Origin: a virus
Virus record (IMG/VR): IMGVR_UViG_3300028584_001241
Direction: 5' to 3' (one strand)
DNA length: 64,000 nt
Part shown: one piece after another, positions 25,566-48,750 of the stretch
How positions within the stretch are numbered: position 1 is the first letter of the stretch
Layout: each line of letters begins with the position of its first letter
The notes under the pieces: generated by a model
What the model was told of the DNA's origin: nothing
Databases searched by the model: none
Seen by the model: the letters and a program-made list of their open reading frames with translations, nothing else
Made by a program: the position numbers and the translations under genes

Positions 25566-25640
25566 TGGTGGACCTGATGGGATTCGAACCCACGACCTCT
25601 TGTATGCCATACAAGCGTTCCCCCTCTGAACTACAAGCCC
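25566..25640 (-). tRNA. tRNA-Ala (GGC)
   Basis: Cloverleaf, CTTGT-ATGGCAT-ACAAG anticodon arm, G3:U70, encoded CCA. Confidence 0.9.
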
Positions 25641-25651
25641 AAAAATAAAAG

Positions 25652-25775
25652 TAGAAAGGAATGGATTCGAACCATTATCACTATCCACATGGCCTATAAA
25701 TCACGAAAATTTATCTGACATGGGATTTAAAGTTACCGGGTCATCCCGGCTGCTCGCCCGTTAAGCTACCTTTCT
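25652..25775 (-). ncRNA. tRNA-like RNA with 4-6 nt anticodon loop and 58-nt extra arm, no encoded CCA
   Basis: Acceptor AGAAAGG/CCTTTCT, D-arm, GCCGGG-ATGA-CCCGGT, T-arm AATGG-TTCGAAT-CCATT. Confidence 0.7.
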
Positions 25776-25782
25776 ATCAATC

Positions 25783-25857
25783 TGGTGGTTCTGCAAGGAA
25801 TCGAACCTTAATCATCCCGTTATGAGCGGGGTGCATTTACCGTTATGCTACAGAACC
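25783..25857 (-). tRNA. tRNA with CAT anticodon (elongator Met or Ile2)
   Basis: CCCG-CTCATAA-CGGG arm; G1:C72 so not initiator; encoded CCA. Confidence 0.85.
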
Positions 25858-25874
25858 ATAATTTACATCTAATT

Positions 25875-25951
25875 TGGTGGGACTTGTAAGACTTGAACTT
25901 ACGACCTGCCGATTATGAGTCGGATGCTCTAACCAACTGAGCTAAAATCCC
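25875..25951 (-). tRNA. tRNA-Ile2 (CAT, lysidine type; reads AUA)
   Basis: CCGA-CTCATAA-TCGG arm and body resemble enterobacterial ileX (recalled); CCA. Confidence 0.8.
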
Positions 25952-26029
25952 ATATTGAATGAACGCCCCCGGAAACCACGGCTTCAATCCAGTCTTACCT
26001 TTAAAGTAAAACCCCCTTATTCTTTTAAA

Positions 26030-26563
26030 TCATTTAAACTCGATAAAAGACAATTCCAGATCAGTCAATTTAGCTCGTATAGAAGCAACAACTTCTGGTC
26101 TAATCTTGTTTCTCTCTGTTGCTTTGTCTTTTTCACGTTTGCGTTTTCTTTCTGCTCGTTCTTTTGTTAAATCAATAGAAAATTTAAGCGATTCAATGCT
26201 GCCAAGCACTTCATCTTCAAATTCTTCATAAATATATTTTGACGGAAACTTATTAAAATAAAGATCAATTACTTTATTTTTATATTCCAAATCATCAATA
26301 TCACTGAAAAACATAAATGTATCAATATAACGTTGATAATCATAGTGTCCAACATCCACACCTTGATAGCTTTCTAAATCAACAGTATCAAAAACAACCC
26401 ATGTATATTTCAAATTCAACAGTGTAGCAATTTTATCAAAAACATACAAAGCACGATTAATAATTTTGTCAGAAATTTCCTTGCTTTCTTTAATTGTTCT
26501 AAAGTCTGCTTTCGCATTAATATATTCATCTTTTGTTAAAGGTGAAACATAATCAATTGACAT
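26030..26563 (-). CDS. Hypothetical protein inside tRNA array
   Basis: 177 aa, GAGG RBS. Confidence 0.7.
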   Translation of the reverse strand: MSIDYVSPLTKDEYINAKADFRTIKESKEISDKIINRALYVFDKIATLLNLKYTWVVFDTVDLESYQGVDVGHYDYQRYIDTFMFFSDIDDLEYKNKVIDLYFNKFPSKYIYEEFEDEVLGSIESLKFSIDLTKERAERKRKREKDKATERNKIRPEVVASIRAKLTDLELSFIEFK

Positions 26564-26596
26564 TATTACATCCTCTATATGGTCTAAACATAAAAT

Positions 26597-26673
26597 TGGC
26601 GTCCGTGATAGGGATCGAACCTACGACCTTCCGCTTAGGAGGCAGACGCTCTATCCAACTGAGCTACACGGAC
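26597..26673 (-). tRNA. tRNA-Arg (CCT)
   Basis: TCTGC-CTCCTAA-GCGGA anticodon arm, CCA. Confidence 0.92.
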
Positions 26674-26683
26674 AAACAAAAAC

Positions 26684-26758
26684 TGGTGGACCGTCAGGGA
26701 CTCGAACCCAGCACTCCTGCGTGCAAGGCAGGTATTTTCCCAGCTAAACTAACAGCCC
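26684..26758 (-). tRNA. tRNA-Ala (TGC)
   Basis: CCTGC-CTTGCAC-GCAGG, G3:U70, CCA. Confidence 0.92.
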
Positions 26759-26764
26759 ATAGTA

Positions 26765-26951
26765 GTATTTCTTCTAACGCTTCACGGATGCAAGCATCTC
26801 CACGCTTCGAAGTGTCGGTAAATACCTACCGGATATACTTATCAGAGGTCAAACTACAGTGATTAAGCTGTTTCAATCATACTTGACCAGTATACTAGTT
26901 GCTAATCAGGCAACACGGCTCTTTTTAAGTTAGCTTACAACAAACTAACTC
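26765..26951 (-). ncRNA. Candidate structured ncRNA between tRNAs
   Basis: About 190 nt without a credible ORF; several nested or adjacent hairpins. Confidence 0.45.
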
Positions 26952-26956
26952 GTGAT

Positions 26957-27032
26957 TGGTATTCCCAGTAGGACTCGAACCTACAACCTATGACTTAGAA
27001 GGTCATTGCTCTTCCAATTGAGCTATGAGAAC
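26957..27032 (-). tRNA. tRNA-Arg (TCT)
   Basis: ATGAC-CTTCTAA-GTCAT, CCA. Confidence 0.92.
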
Positions 27033-27047
27033 ATTAAAACTATAATA

Positions 27048-27122
27048 TGGTGGACCAACAGAGAATCGAACTCTGAATTCCTGCGTGCAAGGCAGGTGTT
27101 TTCCCAATTAAACTATCAGCCC
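27048..27122 (-). tRNA. tRNA-Ala (TGC)
   Basis: CCTGC-CTTGCAC-GCAGG, G3:U70, CCA. Confidence 0.92.
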
Positions 27123-27133
27123 ATATTTAAATC

Positions 27134-27205
27134 TGGTGGAGCCTCGTGGCCTCGAACCACGTTCATTTATTGCTAAATGGTTTTTCCCGTTAAACTAAAC
27201 GCCCC
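27134..27205 (-). tRNA. Atypical or pseudo tRNA with Ala acceptor identity and collapsed anticodon loop
   Basis: G3:U70, ACCA end and intact T-arm, but anticodon arm is CATTT-AGCAAT-AAATG (6-nt loop). Confidence 0.6.
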
Positions 27206-27210
27206 AAATT

Positions 27211-27287
27211 TGGTGTCTGCGGCTGGATTCGAACCAGCGACCATCCGCTTAGAAGGCGGATGCTCTATCCAACTGAGCTACGCAGAC
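27211..27287 (-). tRNA. tRNA-Arg (TCT)
   Basis: TCCGC-CTTCTAA-GCGGA, CCA. Confidence 0.92.
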
Positions 27288-27312
27288 ATATTTCTTTATT
27301 CTACAACTAATA

Positions 27313-27387
27313 TGGTGGACCGTCAGAGAATCGAACTCTGAACATCTGCGTGCAAGGCAGGTATTTTCCCAGTTAAACTAACAGCCC
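27313..27387 (-). tRNA. tRNA-Ala (TGC)
   Basis: CTGC-CTTGCAC-GCAG, G3:U70, CCA. Confidence 0.92.
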
Positions 27388-27392
27388 ATATT

Positions 27393-27653
27393 TTAAATTT
27401 GTTCTACAATTTCCCATTTTCTATCTAATAAGTCAACAAGATAATTATGTCCCGCATATTCTACCACTATCATCGAAGATGTGTCAATCATCCCAGCAAC
27501 ACCATCGAAATCATTCTCATGTTGCTCAGGTTCTGGTGTAACACCTTCAACAACCTTATACTCTCCTTCCGGCAACCCCAGAAGTTCACCTATTTTAGTT
27601 GCAAGCCAAATGGTATCACCAGCTTTTAATATCTTAGGTTCTGGAGCATTCAT
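27393..27653 (-). CDS. Small hypothetical protein (86 aa) inside tRNA array
   Basis: GAGGT RBS before MNAPEPK; the longer track ORF overlaps a tRNA. Confidence 0.7.
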   Translation of the reverse strand: MNAPEPKILKAGDTIWLATKIGELLGLPEGEYKVVEGVTPEPEQHENDFDGVAGMIDTSSMIVVEYAGHNYLVDLLDRKWEIVEQI

Positions 27654-27676
27654 AGACACCTCTACGTTAACAAATC

Positions 27677-27754
27677 TGGTGGAGACAAAGAGAATCGAAC
27701 TCTTCACAGTCTGCGTGCAAGGCAAACTCGCCATCCCTTGGAACATGTGCCCCC
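27677..27754 (-). tRNA. tRNA-Ala (TGC) with atypical D-arm
   Basis: TTTGC-CTTGCAC-GCAGA, G3:U70, CCA; D-arm pairs poorly. Confidence 0.8.
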
Positions 27755-41609: not shown

Positions 41610-41638
41610 TTGACTTTGATAAAAATAAGGCGTAGAAT
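41610..41638 (+). promoter_or_regulatory. sigma70 promoter of pth2-HD operon
   Basis: TTGACT-N17-TAGAAT. Confidence 0.75.
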
Positions 41639-41671
41639 TATAACTGTAAATCAAACAAAGGAGATTACATC

Positions 41672-42133
41672 ATGTTGTAGATTGATAATACTGAATTCGA
41701 CTTCATCACAAAAGAGGCTATTCTTAGCCAATACACTCAATTTGTTCCTTCGGACAAAGACTCACATTACTACATCTATTCAATCATTCGCGGCGATTTA
41801 AATATGCCAACAGGTAAGCTCGCAGCTCAAGCTGGTCACGCTTATACAGATGCATTGACAAACGCACAAGAATCACACCCAGATAACGTTAAACATTATA
41901 GAAATCGTCAATCAGGCGGCTCTAAGGTTACGTTAAAAGCCAAAAACGAAGATCATTTAATTAAAGCATACAACCAAGCTGTTGCTGCTGGATTGCCATG
42001 CTCAATTATTGTCGATCAAGGCCACGTTTTACCACCACACTTTGATGGTTCGCCAATCATTACCGCTCTCGGTATTGGGCCTTGCACCAAAGAACAAGTA
42101 AAACAAATCACCAAGAAATTTCAGTGTGTATAA
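41672..42133 (+). CDS. pth2: Peptidyl-tRNA hydrolase Pth2 with in-frame TAG at codon 3 (41678-41680)
   Basis: YIYSIIRGDLNMPTGKLAAQAGHA, KVTLK, IVDQG, TALGIGP; AAGGAG RBS precedes ATG 41672. Confidence 0.85.
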
Positions 42134-42142
42134 GGGGGACTT

Positions 42143-42910
42143 ATGAATAAAGAATTACTATTAACTATTATTCGTGAGCACAACATCACATTAACTGAAA
42201 CATCCATTCAACGATTAATAGAGTTGGCTGAAATTCAGGCCAACTGGGATGGTCGTGATGCAGAACCTATGGATGAGAATTCCTGCAGAGATCTCTGTCA
42301 TTTTTTAAGCACTGTAAAAGAAGCTATCCCAACTGACATTGGATTTTTCTTTAATCATGAAGGATCTATGAGCATTAACTGGATGTTAGGTGAAAGATTA
42401 GTGGACGTTTGCTTCGAACCAGAAGCTACTTATCTTTACATGACAGGTTATGACGATGGTATTGCACTCCCTAGGTCAGTGTTTAAACATTTCAAATACA
42501 CCGATCCAGAAAGCTGCTTTATCAGCTATAAAACAAAATTGGAGATGGTTTCTGGAATGTTATATAAATTGAGACAAGAGACAGCTAAAAATTTAGTTGA
42601 AGTGATTGCTTATGACTATGGTTGGGGCGAACATGGAGATGAATTAGAAATGAATACAGATGCCTTACATTCATTTGTTCATTTTATAGATAACTTAGAG
42701 GTGTTACCGGAAAAAATAATTATTTTTTTAACCCACGAAGGATTCTTAGAAGTCGTGTTGATGGATTATGATCCGCGTCACGAAATAGAATTTACACCAG
42801 AAGGGTTGCTTTTTTTCTTAGCCCCCGAATATGACATGACAGAAGTCAGCAAAAACAATTTTAACCAATATAAAGATATTAACGATTTTCTAACAGGAGA
42901 AACAAAATGA
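42143..42910 (+). CDS. Hypothetical protein with internally duplicated domain
   Basis: NWDGRDAEPM / GWGEHGDEL and FFNHEG / FLTHEG repeats. Confidence 0.75.
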   Translation: MNKELLLTIIREHNITLTETSIQRLIELAEIQANWDGRDAEPMDENSCRDLCHFLSTVKEAIPTDIGFFFNHEGSMSINWMLGERLVDVCFEPEATYLYMTGYDDGIALPRSVFKHFKYTDPESCFISYKTKLEMVSGMLYKLRQETAKNLVEVIAYDYGWGEHGDELEMNTDALHSFVHFIDNLEVLPEKIIIFLTHEGFLEVVLMDYDPRHEIEFTPEGLLFFLAPEYDMTEVSKNNFNQYKDINDFLTGETK

Positions 42911-43269
42911 GCAGATTAGCAATGATAAACACCATGAAAATTTTTTTAAAAACAGAAAGACCGCATCGTGACGGTGATGGACACAAAGTTAAAGTATTAT
43001 TCTTAAAAGACTATGTGTTGTATGCATTATTAAGAGAGAAAAAAGACTTTACTAACTGTGCTACTGATAAATCGCAAGCTATTTCGATTGCTCTAGACTG
43101 GTTAAGTGCTGTCGAAAGATCCAGAAAACAACTAGAACTTAATAACTTAGAATCGTGGGATTTAAAAGCATTAAAATATAAAATAGGTGTTGACTTCACT
43201 GTTGAAGATTTGGTACAATTAGAACACGCAATAAAGAACCAAATAGATAAACTAAATGTTGAAAAGTAA
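42907..43269 (+). CDS. Hypothetical protein (related to 43900..44328)
   Basis: YVLYALLREK versus FMLYAIIKGK. Confidence 0.7.
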   Translation: MSRLAMINTMKIFLKTERPHRDGDGHKVKVLFLKDYVLYALLREKKDFTNCATDKSQAISIALDWLSAVERSRKQLELNNLESWDLKALKYKIGVDFTVEDLVQLEHAIKNQIDKLNVEK

Positions 43270-43297
43270 TCAAAAACTAACCATTAGGAGAATGACC

Positions 43298-43897
43298 ATG
43301 ACTATGTAGATTGATAAAATTGAAAACCTTAGCTTCAACGATCTTGTTAAAGAGATGAAAGCTTGTGAACAAACACAAGGCATGAATGTTCTTCAACATG
43401 GATTGTCAGTCAATAAATACTTTCAGGATTTGAAAGATCACATTATTGATGGAAAACCATTAGCTCTCGAATGGAGACTTCCTGATTGGATTTACAATAA
43501 ATCTATCTGGAGTAACTTGGCAGATGACAAAGACATCAAAACCTATCAGATTTATCACGACTGTGGTAAGCCATTCTGTTTGACAATTGATGAAAATGGT
43601 AACCGTCACTTCCCTGACCATGCACAAGCATCTGGTCTAATCTGGCGTAAAATCGGTGGCACTGAACTTCAAGCTCAATTGATGGAGCATGATATGGATA
43701 TTCATTTGCTTAAAATGGATGACTTTGAAGATTTCTATGCACTTCCGTTCGCTGCAACCCTATTGATTACTGGTTTCTGTGAGATTCACAGCAATGCTGC
43801 TATGTTTGGTGGTATTGAATCAACAAGTTTTAAAATCAAGTGGAAAAAGATTAACAAAATCGGCAAAAAATTTAATGATAAACTATTAGGAGAATAA
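43298..43897 (+). CDS. HD-domain phosphohydrolase (CCA-adding-enzyme-type HD) with in-frame TAG at 43307-43309
   Basis: VLQHG, YHDCGKP, RHFPDHAQAS, HDM; AGGAG RBS precedes ATG ACT ATG TAG. Confidence 0.75.
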
Positions 43898-43899
43898 TC

Positions 43900-44328
43900 A
43901 TGAACGCTATTGAAAAAAATGAAACTATCGAAACAACTGAAATGAATAAAAGAGACTTAATTAAAAAAGCGGTTGTCACATTCCGTGAAGGCTATAAAGA
44001 GAATAAACATGTTTGCACCTTAGAAGTCTTTATGTTGTATGCAATCATCAAAGGAAAACATGTGGATGTAACCATTAAGGATAATCACTACAAAGAAGGC
44101 TGCAATCCATTTGATCACCACCCAGTATTCAAATATAACATTGAAAAGGTATCAAATATCAATGCGGGTATTTTGCTGGAGTATGGACAAGGTGCAATCA
44201 GAATTATTTCGAAGAGTAATTATATGGTTAACTCAGTCAATGAAAAAGTTAAATACTTCTTCGGGCTAACACCAGTGGAATTTGAGTTCTTGCTCAATCA
44301 ATATGTAGAAGAAAGAAAAGCCTCTTAA
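43900..44328 (+). CDS. Hypothetical protein
   Basis: AGGAG RBS; last gene of operon. Confidence 0.75.
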   Translation: MNAIEKNETIETTEMNKRDLIKKAVVTFREGYKENKHVCTLEVFMLYAIIKGKHVDVTIKDNHYKEGCNPFDHHPVFKYNIEKVSNINAGILLEYGQGAIRIISKSNYMVNSVNEKVKYFFGLTPVEFEFLLNQYVEERKAS

Positions 44329-45059
44329 TGAGGCTTTCTTTTTGATACGTGAGGTAACTCATAATCTATGACAGAAACAATAGTATTTGGTAAGAACTCA
44401 AACGCATTTTCATCGTGTGCATAATGAAGATTAATAAAGTTAGCTTGTATGTATTCTTTGAATTCAGCAACATCATTGAAAACAATTCCATTTACTGGTT
44501 TCTTCTCCATAATGATTTGATTAACCGTTTTTTCATAATCGTGAGGATAAGATGCTGTTGGCTTATCAATCGGTATTAAGTCGCCCACTCTAAAACTGGT
44601 AAAGTTTGGATAACCATATTCAAATGGAATACCATAGGGTGCGGCTTGCCTCATCTCTTCCAAGGAGTATGACTTAGTATTACTGTTAATAAAGAAAAGA
44701 GAATGCCCAGATTGACCTTGCCATTCGCCATTTTTAGGAATGTTATGTGTGTCTAATTCAACAATATTTTGACTGATGTAGTCAACAATAAAGCGTACAT
44801 TTTTCCCCTTTTTGTCGTTCTTAGTAGCACTCATGGAAAACTTGTTAATGACATATCCTCTGACTTCTGAATTTCGATTAACATAGTCCACTAATCTTAT
44901 TAAGGTATCGGGTTTTTCGTAATCAAATTTTTTCATGAGATACACTATCTCTTCATCAAGCTCGGCCTGAGAGGTTATTCGTTGGTGTCTATTTTCTGTT
45001 TGTGCAAATGAAGTTGTAGTAATTAAAAATAAGCTAGTAAGTAATATGCGTTTTAACAT
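44325..45059 (-). CDS. Secreted protein
   Basis: Signal peptide ending SFA|Q. Confidence 0.7.
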   Translation of the reverse strand: MLKRILLTSLFLITTTSFAQTENRHQRITSQAELDEEIVYLMKKFDYEKPDTLIRLVDYVNRNSEVRGYVINKFSMSATKNDKKGKNVRFIVDYISQNIVELDTHNIPKNGEWQGQSGHSLFFINSNTKSYSLEEMRQAAPYGIPFEYGYPNFTSFRVGDLIPIDKPTASYPHDYEKTVNQIIMEKKPVNGIVFNDVAEFKEYIQANFINLHYAHDENAFEFLPNTIVSVIDYELPHVSKRKPH

Positions 45060-48667: not shown

Positions 48668-48750
48668 ATTATTTTTCAAAATAATCAAAGAACCAGATTG
48701 ATATAATTTCAGTTTATTGTATAATAACTGAAAACAATGAGAGTCGTAAA

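What the first reader, a model, noticed from the sequence alone, without database searches (positions are those of the whole stretch)
41659..43320. Two genes in one operon start with a minigene ending in an in-frame amber in identical context (TG-TAG-ATT-GAT-AA): candidate programmed readthrough gating Pth2
Seen: AAGGAG-N8-ATG TTG TAG ATT GAT AAT (41672) continues in frame for 41 sense codons into the Pth2 ORF. This stretch includes YIYSIIRGDL, which matches the conserved first beta strand of Pth2 that precedes M..GK.AAQ..HA, so the track ORF starting at 41804 is truncated. Independently, AGGAG-N7-ATG ACT ATG TAG ATT GAT AAA (43298) continues in frame into the HD hydrolase. The 13-mer TGTAGATTGATAA is identical in two unrelated genes, which argues against sequencing error or random decay. 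It also has tandem TGA TAA stops in a shifted frame. TAG is a real stop elsewhere in the window (paralogs end KMALI-TAG and KMALI-TAA). Established: very short minigenes cause peptidyl-tRNA drop-off, the substrate of Pth, and UAG is read only by RF1. Inference: full-length Pth2 and HD are made only when amber termination fails (RF1 limited or inhibited, or a suppressor tRNA encoded elsewhere), or by re-initiation at the adjacent ATT. Either would be a translation-stress switch for a tRNA-rescue operon.
Basis: partly seen in the sequence, partly recalled or inferred. Interest (0 to 1): 0.85.

Follow-up and report, generated by a model that had tools for sequence, protein, structure and literature searches.

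The report
Stop-codon-gated Pth2 and HD genes
Two tRNA-end enzyme genes in one operon each carry a real, conserved UAG stop two or three codons after their start. In dozens of giant phages and mobile elements the same genes show the same layout beside a stop-reading tRNA of matching anticodon, so they are probably made only when such a tRNA overrides the stop.

Summary
SD-ATG-TTG-TAG (41672-41680) and SD-ATG-ACT-ATG-TAG (43298-43309) are in frame with a PTH2 hydrolase and an HD-fold gene. The sequence between each TAG and the first Met is coding: it is homologous to relatives, under purifying selection, and structurally needed.

The layout is gene-specific, with only these two sites in 64 kb plus 181 kb of a relative. 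It is widespread: 47 of 68 dereplicated HD loci and 9 of 11 Pth2 loci start with ATG, 1-7 sense codons and an in-frame stop. The codon after the stop varies, which rules out AUU re-initiation as the general mechanism.

The decisive result is codon-anticodon covariation. Seven TAG-gated elements checked here carry a tRNA(CUA), and two more do according to their papers. All three TGA-gated elements carry a tRNA(UCA) and no CUA. The tRNA(CUA) often lies within 3 kb of the gene.

The main caveat is that no tRNA(CUA) was found in this window or in 181 kb of its closest relative. The parent replicon is about 1.86 Mb and could not be searched.

This scan has found the same module before on other DNA. 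I found no publication of it. The XacN1 paper says the targets of its suppressor tRNAs are unknown, yet its HD homolog carries the gate.

The parts
41610..41638 (+). sigma-70-like promoter TTGACT-17-TAGAAT upstream of the operon
   Evidence: the hexamers are conserved in the relative L001
41658..41663 (+). Shine-Dalgarno AAGGAG, 8 nt before ATG 41672
41672..41680 (+). leader ATG TTG TAG: the start codon, one sense codon and the in-frame amber gate of Pth2
   Evidence: identical in L001 and L130
41681..42133 (+). PTH2-family peptidyl-tRNA hydrolase body: 150 codons after the TAG, then a TAA stop
   Evidence: Pfam PF01981 at 89.4 bits over residues 32-148. NCBIfam Pth2 models match below their cut-offs. 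dN/dS 0.02-0.06, and the 41-codon extension is also under purifying selection. Atu_ph07 homology starts at residue 1
42143..42910 (+). 255-aa ORF of unknown function in the operon
   Evidence: no Pfam, PHROG or NCBIfam hit
42907..43269 (+). 120-aa ORF of unknown function
   Evidence: no family hit
43286..43290 (+). Shine-Dalgarno AGGAG, 7 nt before ATG 43298
43298..43309 (+). leader ATG ACT ATG TAG: the in-frame amber gate of the HD-like gene
   Evidence: conserved in L001/L010 and L130
43310..43897 (+). HD-fold protein (phrog_14850), 195 codons after the TAG
   Evidence: phrog_14850 at E 5.5e-65. AlphaFold model at pLDDT 97.1, with helix 9-18 spanning Met16. Best fold and profile matches are the tRNA nucleotidyltransferase entries 3wfo-3wfs, then HD enzymes. 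Invariant H30, H83-D84, H104, D128, H132. dN/dS 0.08-0.10
43900..44328 (+). 142-aa ORF of unknown function, last gene of the operon
   Evidence: no family hit
44317..44345 (+). intrinsic-terminator-like hairpin followed by a T run
41676..41688 (+). first copy of the 13-mer TGTAGATTGATAA
43305..43317 (+). second copy of the 13-mer TGTAGATTGATAA

Best explanation
Ribosomes start at the SD-positioned ATG, read one or two sense codons and meet UAG. Release factor 1 ends translation there unless a UAG-reading suppressor tRNA (anticodon CUA) inserts an amino acid. If it does, translation continues in frame into the full-length Pth2 or HD-fold protein. The two enzymes are therefore made in proportion to suppressor-tRNA activity relative to RF1. 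Both probably act on tRNA 3' ends, and in other elements they are fused into one protein. Shown here: the gates are real, conserved, specific to these genes, and lie in front of sequence that is translated. In relatives, the stop codon used in the gate matches the anticodon of the element's own suppressor tRNA. Inferred: this replicon or its host supplies a tRNA(CUA) outside the DNA I could see. Also inferred is that the early position serves as a cheap on/off gate. Termination on very short nascent chains is known to be inefficient, which would favour the tRNA; this point rests on my own knowledge of the minigene literature. The purpose of the gate is not established. It could time expression, keep it tight, or match the supply of tRNA-recycling enzymes to the amount of read-through.
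For: 1. The sites are real and conserved in three lineages.
2. The sequence after each TAG is coding. Pfam PTH2 begins 10 residues before the first Met. Atu_ph07 and ME3 homologs align from residues 1 and 4. The 41-codon Pth2 extension has dN 0.01-0.02 against dS 0.09-0.19. HD helix 9-18 would be cut by a start at Met16.
3. The gate is gene-specific. Only these two genes carry it in the window and in G001. In 1168 other ORFs of the related loci, 39 have a TAG gate against 2 with TAA and 7 with TGA. Of the 39, 36 are same-strand neighbours of the HD or Pth2 gene. Of the 10 scanned, 5 matched Pfam PTH2 at E up to 0.01 and 4 passed the Pfam cut-off.
4. The gate is widespread. 45 TAG-gated and 2 TGA-gated of 68 dereplicated HD loci; 8 TAG and 1 TGA of 11 Pth2 loci; 57 of 68 HD loci hold at least one gated gene.
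5. The base after TAG is A in 27, G in 13, C in 5 and T in 0. A purine there is the known favourable context for amber suppression (my own knowledge).
6. A suppressor tRNA is linked to the genes. A tRNA(CUA) lies within 2.5-3 kb in 32 of 68 HD loci and is often the only tRNA there.
7. Covariation. TAG-gated pT24, Phosso and G002-G006 carry a tRNA(CUA). XacN1 and RsoM2USA do too, according to PMC5852040 and PMC8504454. TGA-gated Atu_ph07, G007 and G008 carry a tRNA(UCA) and no CUA was detected. That is 12 of 12 concordant.
8. Pth2-HD fusions sit behind a single N-terminal TAG in pT24, L023 and L041.
Against: No tRNA with a CUA anticodon was found in the 64-kb window. None was found in the 181-kb related contig G001, which CheckV rates 58% complete, or in L130 and L131. 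The parent contig of about 1.86 Mb is not held, so it could not be searched. TAG is a genuine stop for 7 of the 84 stop-to-stop frames of 100 or more codons in the window, so a strong suppressor would extend other proteins. Nothing here is experimental. Whether any of these tRNAs is expressed or charged is unknown, and nearest-neighbour typing could not tell which amino acid it would carry. ATT follows the stop far more often than chance would give (15 of 45 HD gates, 4 of 8 Pth2 gates), and suppression alone does not explain this.
Confidence: 0.62

Rival explanations
1. Read-through without a dedicated suppressor. In this lineage the UAG is read at a low level by near-cognate host tRNAs, and more often when RF1 activity falls. 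The operon would then sense termination capacity.
For: No tRNA(CUA) in 64 kb plus 181 kb of this lineage. UAG followed by A, after a very short leader, is a leaky context (my own knowledge).
Against: Every gated element whose tRNAs were checked here (10) or are reported in its paper (2) has the cognate suppressor. The stop type covaries with the anticodon. Strong purifying selection suggests more than trace expression.
Confidence: 0.17
2. Termination followed by re-initiation. The leader is a coupling mini-ORF, and after release at UAG the ribosome restarts at the adjacent AUU, so the proteins begin at codons 41681 and 43310.
For: ATT directly follows the stop at both sites. It is the commonest codon after the stop in homologs (15 of 45 HD, 4 of 8 Pth2). 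One homolog has TAG ATG (L019).
Against: Most homologs have codons after the stop that cannot initiate, such as GTT, GTA, CTT, ACT, ACG, AAC, AGT and GGC. Re-initiation would not require strict in-frame conservation. It would not predict covariation of the stop with the tRNA anticodon. The ATT lies 17 nt from the SD.
Confidence: 0.1
3. The genes are effectively silenced, or are expressed only as N-terminally truncated proteins from Met 41804 and Met 43355, and the leaders are decaying remnants.
For: Gene callers pick these Met starts, and published relatives are annotated that way (Atu_ph07, XacN1, Phosso).
Against: dN/dS is 0.02-0.10, and the pre-Met extension of Pth2 is also constrained. A Met start removes the first PTH2 strand and cuts HD helix 1. 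The gates are conserved across dozens of distant elements.
Confidence: 0.05

Closest known systems
Stop-codon recoding in phages with their own suppressor tRNAs (TAG or TGA reassigned; Ivanova 2014 and Borges 2022, cited from my own knowledge)
   Same: In-frame stop codons lie inside conserved genes and are read by a suppressor tRNA that the element encodes. The design has been proposed to control when genes are translated.
   Different: Here the code is otherwise standard, and TAG ends ordinary genes. Only two genes in about 245 kb are affected. There is a single stop per gene, placed at codon 2-8 right after the start. The targets are tRNA-end enzymes, not late or lysis genes.
Orphan amber suppressor tRNAs of jumbo phages (XacN1, PMC5852040; RsoM2USA, PMC8504454; Summit, PMC9022506)
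   Same: The same kind of tRNA(CUA) occurs in phages that use the standard code.
   Different: The XacN1 and Summit papers report that no target genes could be identified, and the RsoM2USA paper names none. The gate described here sits in the XacN1 HD homolog ORF364 as ATG AAG TAG ACC and in front of the RsoM2USA homolog.
Lambda bar minigenes (SD-AUG-one sense codon-stop), whose peptidyl-tRNA drop-off is toxic when Pth is limiting (my own knowledge)
   Same: The anatomy is identical: a strong SD, then ATG, one or two sense codons and a stop. It sits in front of a peptidyl-tRNA hydrolase gene.
   Different: bar minigenes stand alone. Here the stop is in frame with a long conserved ORF, and the stop type tracks a suppressor tRNA. 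Drop-off was not tested.
prfB (RF2) autoregulation through an early in-frame UGA
   Same: An early in-frame stop makes the output depend on competition with a release factor.
   Different: There is no +1 frameshift and no internal SD, and the product is not the release factor.
Synthetic gates and feed-forward loops built on suppressor tRNAs in E. coli (PMC7969014)
   Same: An amber codon near the start of a gene, combined with a separately expressed suppressor tRNA, gives tight AND-type control.
   Different: That system is engineered. This would be a natural counterpart.

Membership tests
PTH2 peptidyl-tRNA hydrolase (Pfam PF01981) | Profile match above the curated cut-off over the whole domain | tested here: met
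   89.4 bits against a cut-off of 23; residues 32-148 match profile positions 3-113 of 115. The NCBIfam Pth2 equivalog models match below their own cut-offs, so this is a divergent member.
HD-domain metal-dependent phosphohydrolase superfamily | H...HD...D metal-binding residues on an all-helical HD fold | tested here: inconclusive
   H30, H83-D84 and D128 are invariant, as are H104 and H132. The model has pLDDT 97.1 and is all-helical. The best Foldseek hits are the tRNA nucleotidyltransferase entries 3wfo-3wfs (TMq about 0.6, E 3e-3), then PhnZ, YfbR and PgpH. There is no Pfam HD hit. No activity was tested.
Suppressor-tRNA-dependent stop-codon recoding | In-frame stop inside a conserved coding sequence | tested here: met
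Suppressor-tRNA-dependent stop-codon recoding | A cognate suppressor tRNA encoded by the same element | tested here: inconclusive
   None in the window or in 181 kb of its relative, and the rest of the 1.86-Mb replicon was unavailable. The feature is met in all 10 relatives checked here and in 2 more according to their papers.
Suppressor-tRNA-dependent stop-codon recoding | Genome-wide recoding of many genes (code 15 or code 4 type) | tested here: not met
   The standard code gives 60 kb of long stop-to-stop frames in the 64-kb window, and TAG ends 7 of those 84 frames. Only two gated genes were found in 245 kb.
bar-type minigene | SD-ATG followed by 1-2 sense codons and a stop | tested here: met
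bar-type minigene | Expression causes peptidyl-tRNA drop-off and toxicity when Pth is limiting | not testable with these tools
   This needs genetics or biochemistry.
AUU-initiated genes (infC type) | AUU at proper SD spacing, and conserved as the start in homologs | tested here: not met
   The spacing from the SD is 17 nt. The codon after the stop varies widely in homologs.
prfB-type programmed frameshift | The frame changes at the early stop | tested here: not met
   The downstream ORF is in the zero frame at both sites.

The most novel reading that the evidence does not exclude
A natural translational switch operated by a tRNA. Giant phages and mega-elements that use the standard code keep a dedicated suppressor tRNA whose only targets are an early stop codon in the genes for two tRNA-3'-end enzymes, Pth2 and an HD-fold protein. 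Enzyme output would then report and perhaps feed back on suppressor activity. In this replicon the tRNA would act in trans from a distant site. This would explain the 'orphan' suppressor tRNAs of jumbo phages.
Probability: 0.45. Interest if true: 0.85.

Novelty: new variant of a known kind. Interest (0 to 1): 0.74.

Why it matters
Suppressor tRNAs keep turning up in jumbo phages that use the standard code, and the published genome papers I read could not name their targets. The gate described here supplies a concrete and testable target set: Pth2 and an HD-fold protein, which are sometimes fused. It also supplies a mechanism. If confirmed, it would be a natural example of gene control by competition between a tRNA and a release factor, and a ready-made orthogonal switch for engineering. 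It would also link stop-codon read-through to enzymes that clean tRNA 3' ends. In practice it shows that gene callers systematically truncate these genes, for example in Atu_ph07, Phosso, XacN1 and pT24.

Tried and rejected
- AUU re-initiation was my first idea after seeing TGA-ATT in Atu_ph07. I rejected it when 68 HD loci showed 16 different codons after the stop.
- Ribosome hopping from TTG to the TTG inside ATTGAT lands in the wrong frame. I checked this by hand.
- TTG 41682 as a start leads into a +1-frame ORF that ends at 41801. That ORF is not the conserved frame, since substitutions are synonymous in the Pth2 frame.
- TTGATA as a -35 box has no -10 partner. The similar CAG ATT GAT ATA at 48697 is simply a promoter.
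- A general TAG reassignment is rejected by ORF statistics.
- Sequencing error and decay are rejected by three lineages and by dN/dS.
- I looked for a CUA tRNA in the window and its relatives with ARAGORN, Rfam, a covariance model built from 32 tRNA(CUA) genes, and a hand-written scan for anticodon stem-loops. All were negative.
- No whole genome is held for the window, and the two metagenome contigs that carry the leader are not held either.
- Typing the suppressor tRNAs by nearest neighbour gave no consistent amino-acid identity.
- The 13-mer search allowing 2 mismatches is uninformative, with 7 found against 6.2 expected.
- The Pseudomonas megaplasmid homolog (L132) has ATG TTG TAG in a different frame from its HD ORF. 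I did not resolve this.
Full report
**1. The observation**

The sequence is as described. AAGGAG at 41658-41663 is followed after 8 nt by ATG TTG TAG ATT GAT AAT, starting at 41672. AGGAG at 43286-43290 is followed after 7 nt by ATG ACT ATG TAG ATT GAT AAA, starting at 43298. Both TAGs are in frame with the long ORFs behind them.

The exact 13-mer TGTAGATTGATAA occurs only at these two places. The paralogs ending KMALI-TAA and KMALI-TAG exist. The standard code fits the window: 84 stop-to-stop frames of 100 or more codons cover 60 kb, and 7 of them end in TAG.

The operon has these parts:
- a TTGACT-17-TAGAAT promoter-like site at 41610-41638;
- five ORFs (Pth2, 255 aa, 120 aa, HD-like, 142 aa);
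- a terminator-like hairpin at 44317-44337.

**2. The stretch after each TAG is coding**

- Pfam PTH2 (89.4 bits) begins at residue 32 of the protein counted from ATT 41681. That is 10 residues before Met 41804.
- tblastn against phage genomes aligns Agrobacterium phage Atu_ph07 from residue 1 of the Pth2 extension. It aligns Acinetobacter phage ME3, which has an ordinary SD-ATG start, from residue 4 of the HD extension.
- Two further lineages about 80-87% identical in DNA keep both leaders letter for letter. They are G001/L001, a 181-kb IMG/VR contig cut from a 1,859,102-bp metagenome contig, and L130 from a 113.9-kb contig.
- Among the three lineages dN/dS is 0.02-0.06 for Pth2 and 0.08-0.10 for HD. 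The 41 codons between the TAG and the first Met of Pth2 have dN 0.01-0.02 against dS 0.09-0.19.
- An AlphaFold model of the HD-like protein (36-sequence alignment, pLDDT 97.1) places residues 9-18 in the first helix. A start at Met16 (43355) would cut that helix.

Sequencing error, decay and the Met starts are therefore poor explanations.

**3. Specificity**

I scanned all six frames for SD-ATG, up to 8 codons, TAG, then at least 100 open codons. Only these two sites turn up in the window, and only the same two in the 181-kb relative.

**4. Spread**

The search for related loci and tblastn gave 90 HD-like loci (68 after dereplication) and 19 Pth2 loci (11 after dereplication). They come from IMG/VR, GTDB genomes and named phages.

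| Family | Dereplicated loci | TAG-gated | TGA-gated |
|---|---|---|---|
| HD-like | 68 | 45 | 2 |
| Pth2 | 11 | 8 | 1 |

A gated gene is preceded in frame by ATG, 0-7 further sense codons and a stop. The commonest form is ATG plus one codon. Homology resumes right after the stop.

Among 1168 other long ORFs in the same loci, 39 carry a TAG gate, against 2 with TAA and 7 with TGA. Of the 39, 36 are same-strand neighbours of the target gene. Ten were scanned: 5 matched Pfam PTH2 at E up to 0.01, and 4 of those passed the Pfam cut-off. In all, 57 of 68 HD loci hold at least one gated gene.

In pT24, L023 and L041 a PTH2 domain and the HD domain form one protein behind a single N-terminal TAG. 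This links the two enzymes functionally. GAP32-like phages gate the small upstream gene and couple the HD gene to it through TAA-ATG.

**5. Mechanism**

Atu_ph07 has ATG plus five codons, then TGA ATT. At first this suggested re-initiation at AUU. The wider sample rejects that idea. The codon after the stop is ATT in 15 of 45 HD gates, but GTA, GTT, CTT, CTG, CTC, ACT, ACG, ACC, AAC, AAT, AGT, GGC, ATA, ATC or ATG in the others. The first base after TAG is A in 27, G in 13, C in 5 and T in 0. A purine there is the context known to favour amber suppression (my own knowledge).

A tRNA with anticodon CUA lies within 2.5-3 kb of the HD gene in 32 of 68 loci and is often the only tRNA there. In seven contigs binned with Obscuribacterales or other Cyanobacteria, it sits about 120 nt behind the gated gene.

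The stop codon of each gate matches the anticodon of the element's own suppressor tRNA:

| Gate | Element | Suppressor tRNA found | Source |
|---|---|---|---|
| TAG | pT24 | CUA, one of only four tRNA matches, 2.7 kb from the gene | |
| TAG | Phosso | CUA | |
| TAG | G002, G003, G004, G006 | CUA elsewhere on the contig | |
| TAG | G005 | unusual CUA, missed by ARAGORN, found with my covariance model | |
| TAG | XacN1, RsoM2USA | CUA | PMC5852040, PMC8504454 |
| TGA | Atu_ph07, G007, G008 | UCA; no CUA detected | |

That is 12 of 12 concordant. If the three UCA tRNAs were spread at random over the 12 elements, the odds of this pattern would be 1 in 220 (hand calculation). This covariation is the strongest evidence that the stop is decoded by a cognate suppressor tRNA.

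**6. The gap for this window**

I found no CUA tRNA in the window, in the 181 kb of G001, or in L130 and L131. The tools used were ARAGORN, Rfam, the covariance model R1 and a custom scan for anticodon stem-loops.

No whole genome is held for the window, and the 1.86-Mb parent contig is not held. The nearest relative with a visible suppressor is L014/L146 (Pth2 68% identical, TAG ATT GAT context), with a tRNA(CUA) about 1 kb upstream. For this lineage, decoding by a suppressor is therefore inferred, not shown.

**7. What the proteins are**

Pth2 is a divergent PTH2-family member. The HD-like protein belongs to phrog_14850, of unknown function, and has no Pfam hit. It keeps invariant H30, H83-D84, H104, D128 and H132.

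Its best profile and fold matches are the tRNA nucleotidyltransferase structures 3wfo-3wfs (hmmsearch E 3e-4; Foldseek TMq about 0.6). HD enzymes follow. A role at tRNA 3' ends is plausible but untested.

**8. Comparison with what is known**

Phage stop-codon recoding with suppressor tRNAs is known. It involves many genes in recoded genomes. Here the code is standard and the stop is a single early gate on two particular genes.

The XacN1 paper states that targets of its two CUA tRNAs could not be identified. Its HD homolog ORF364 starts ATG AAG TAG ACC, upstream of the annotated start. The Summit announcement says the same about its own suppressor tRNA.

I found no paper describing the gate. 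The closest design is synthetic (PMC7969014).

This scan has reported the same module repeatedly on other DNA. I reached my reading before consulting those notes, and it agrees with them. New in this analysis:
- the TGA-UCA covariation;
- the case of a large replicon with no suppressor tRNA in view;
- the identical 13-nt cassette on both genes.

**9. Verdict**

I rate this a new variant of a known kind.

Noticed in passing
window 25652-25775 (-): A 124-nt tRNA-like gene scores 36.9 bits against Rfam tRNA. It has a roughly 55-nt insert after the anticodon arm and a 4-nt loop where the anticodon loop should be. ARAGORN does not call it.
   Followed up: partly
window 27134-27204 (-): A further tRNA-like element inside the tRNA array scores 32.6 bits with model R1. 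Its anticodon loop reads AGCAATA, with G at position 33. ARAGORN does not call it. G001 has similar odd members, which ARAGORN labels '???' with anticodons (tt) and (cgct).
   Followed up: partly
window 25566-27752 (-); G001 77.6-79.5 kb and 156.1-158.2 kb: The tRNA arrays are highly redundant. The window has 5 Ala, 3 Arg and 2 Met. The relative has 11 Leu tRNAs covering five different anticodons plus one Gln. This is an unusual composition for codon supply.
   Followed up: no
L132 2950-3010 (Pseudomonas fluorescens megaplasmid pMPCFBP13716, 971 kb): The HD homolog is preceded by ATG TTG TAG, but in a different frame from the HD ORF. No canonical start lies before the conserved Met. This could be a frameshifted or decaying gate.
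   Followed up: partly
L004 40-630 (Ralstonia phage RsoM2USA): The HD homolog follows, in frame, an annotated 186-aa CDS that ends ATG AAA TCG TAG. Read-through of that CDS would give a fusion protein. The upstream protein has no Pfam hit.
   Followed up: partly
L159 2395-2900: A gated Pth2 gene (ATG ACC GCG TAG ATT GAT) is flanked by two tRNA(CUA) genes. The 3' end of the upstream tRNA supplies the AGGAG of its ribosome-binding site.
   Followed up: no
L002 580-700, L007 260-435, L164 1490-1515, L005/L060: Published annotations of Atu_ph07, Phosso, XacN1 ORF364 and pT24 start these genes at a downstream Met. They therefore miss the leader, the gate and the N-terminal extension.
   Followed up: yes
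HD and Pth2 gates across loci L010-L164: ATT is strongly over-represented right after the stop, and U at the second position of that codon occurs in about 78% of the 45 TAG-gated HD genes. TAG ATT GAT recurs in unrelated genes and phages, for example L038, L070, L146 and L159. Suppression alone does not explain this.
   Followed up: partly
window 43190-43219 (+): A second promoter-like site, TTGACT-18-TACAAT with an upstream TG, lies inside the 120-aa ORF just before the HD leader. The HD gene might have its own transcript.
   Followed up: no
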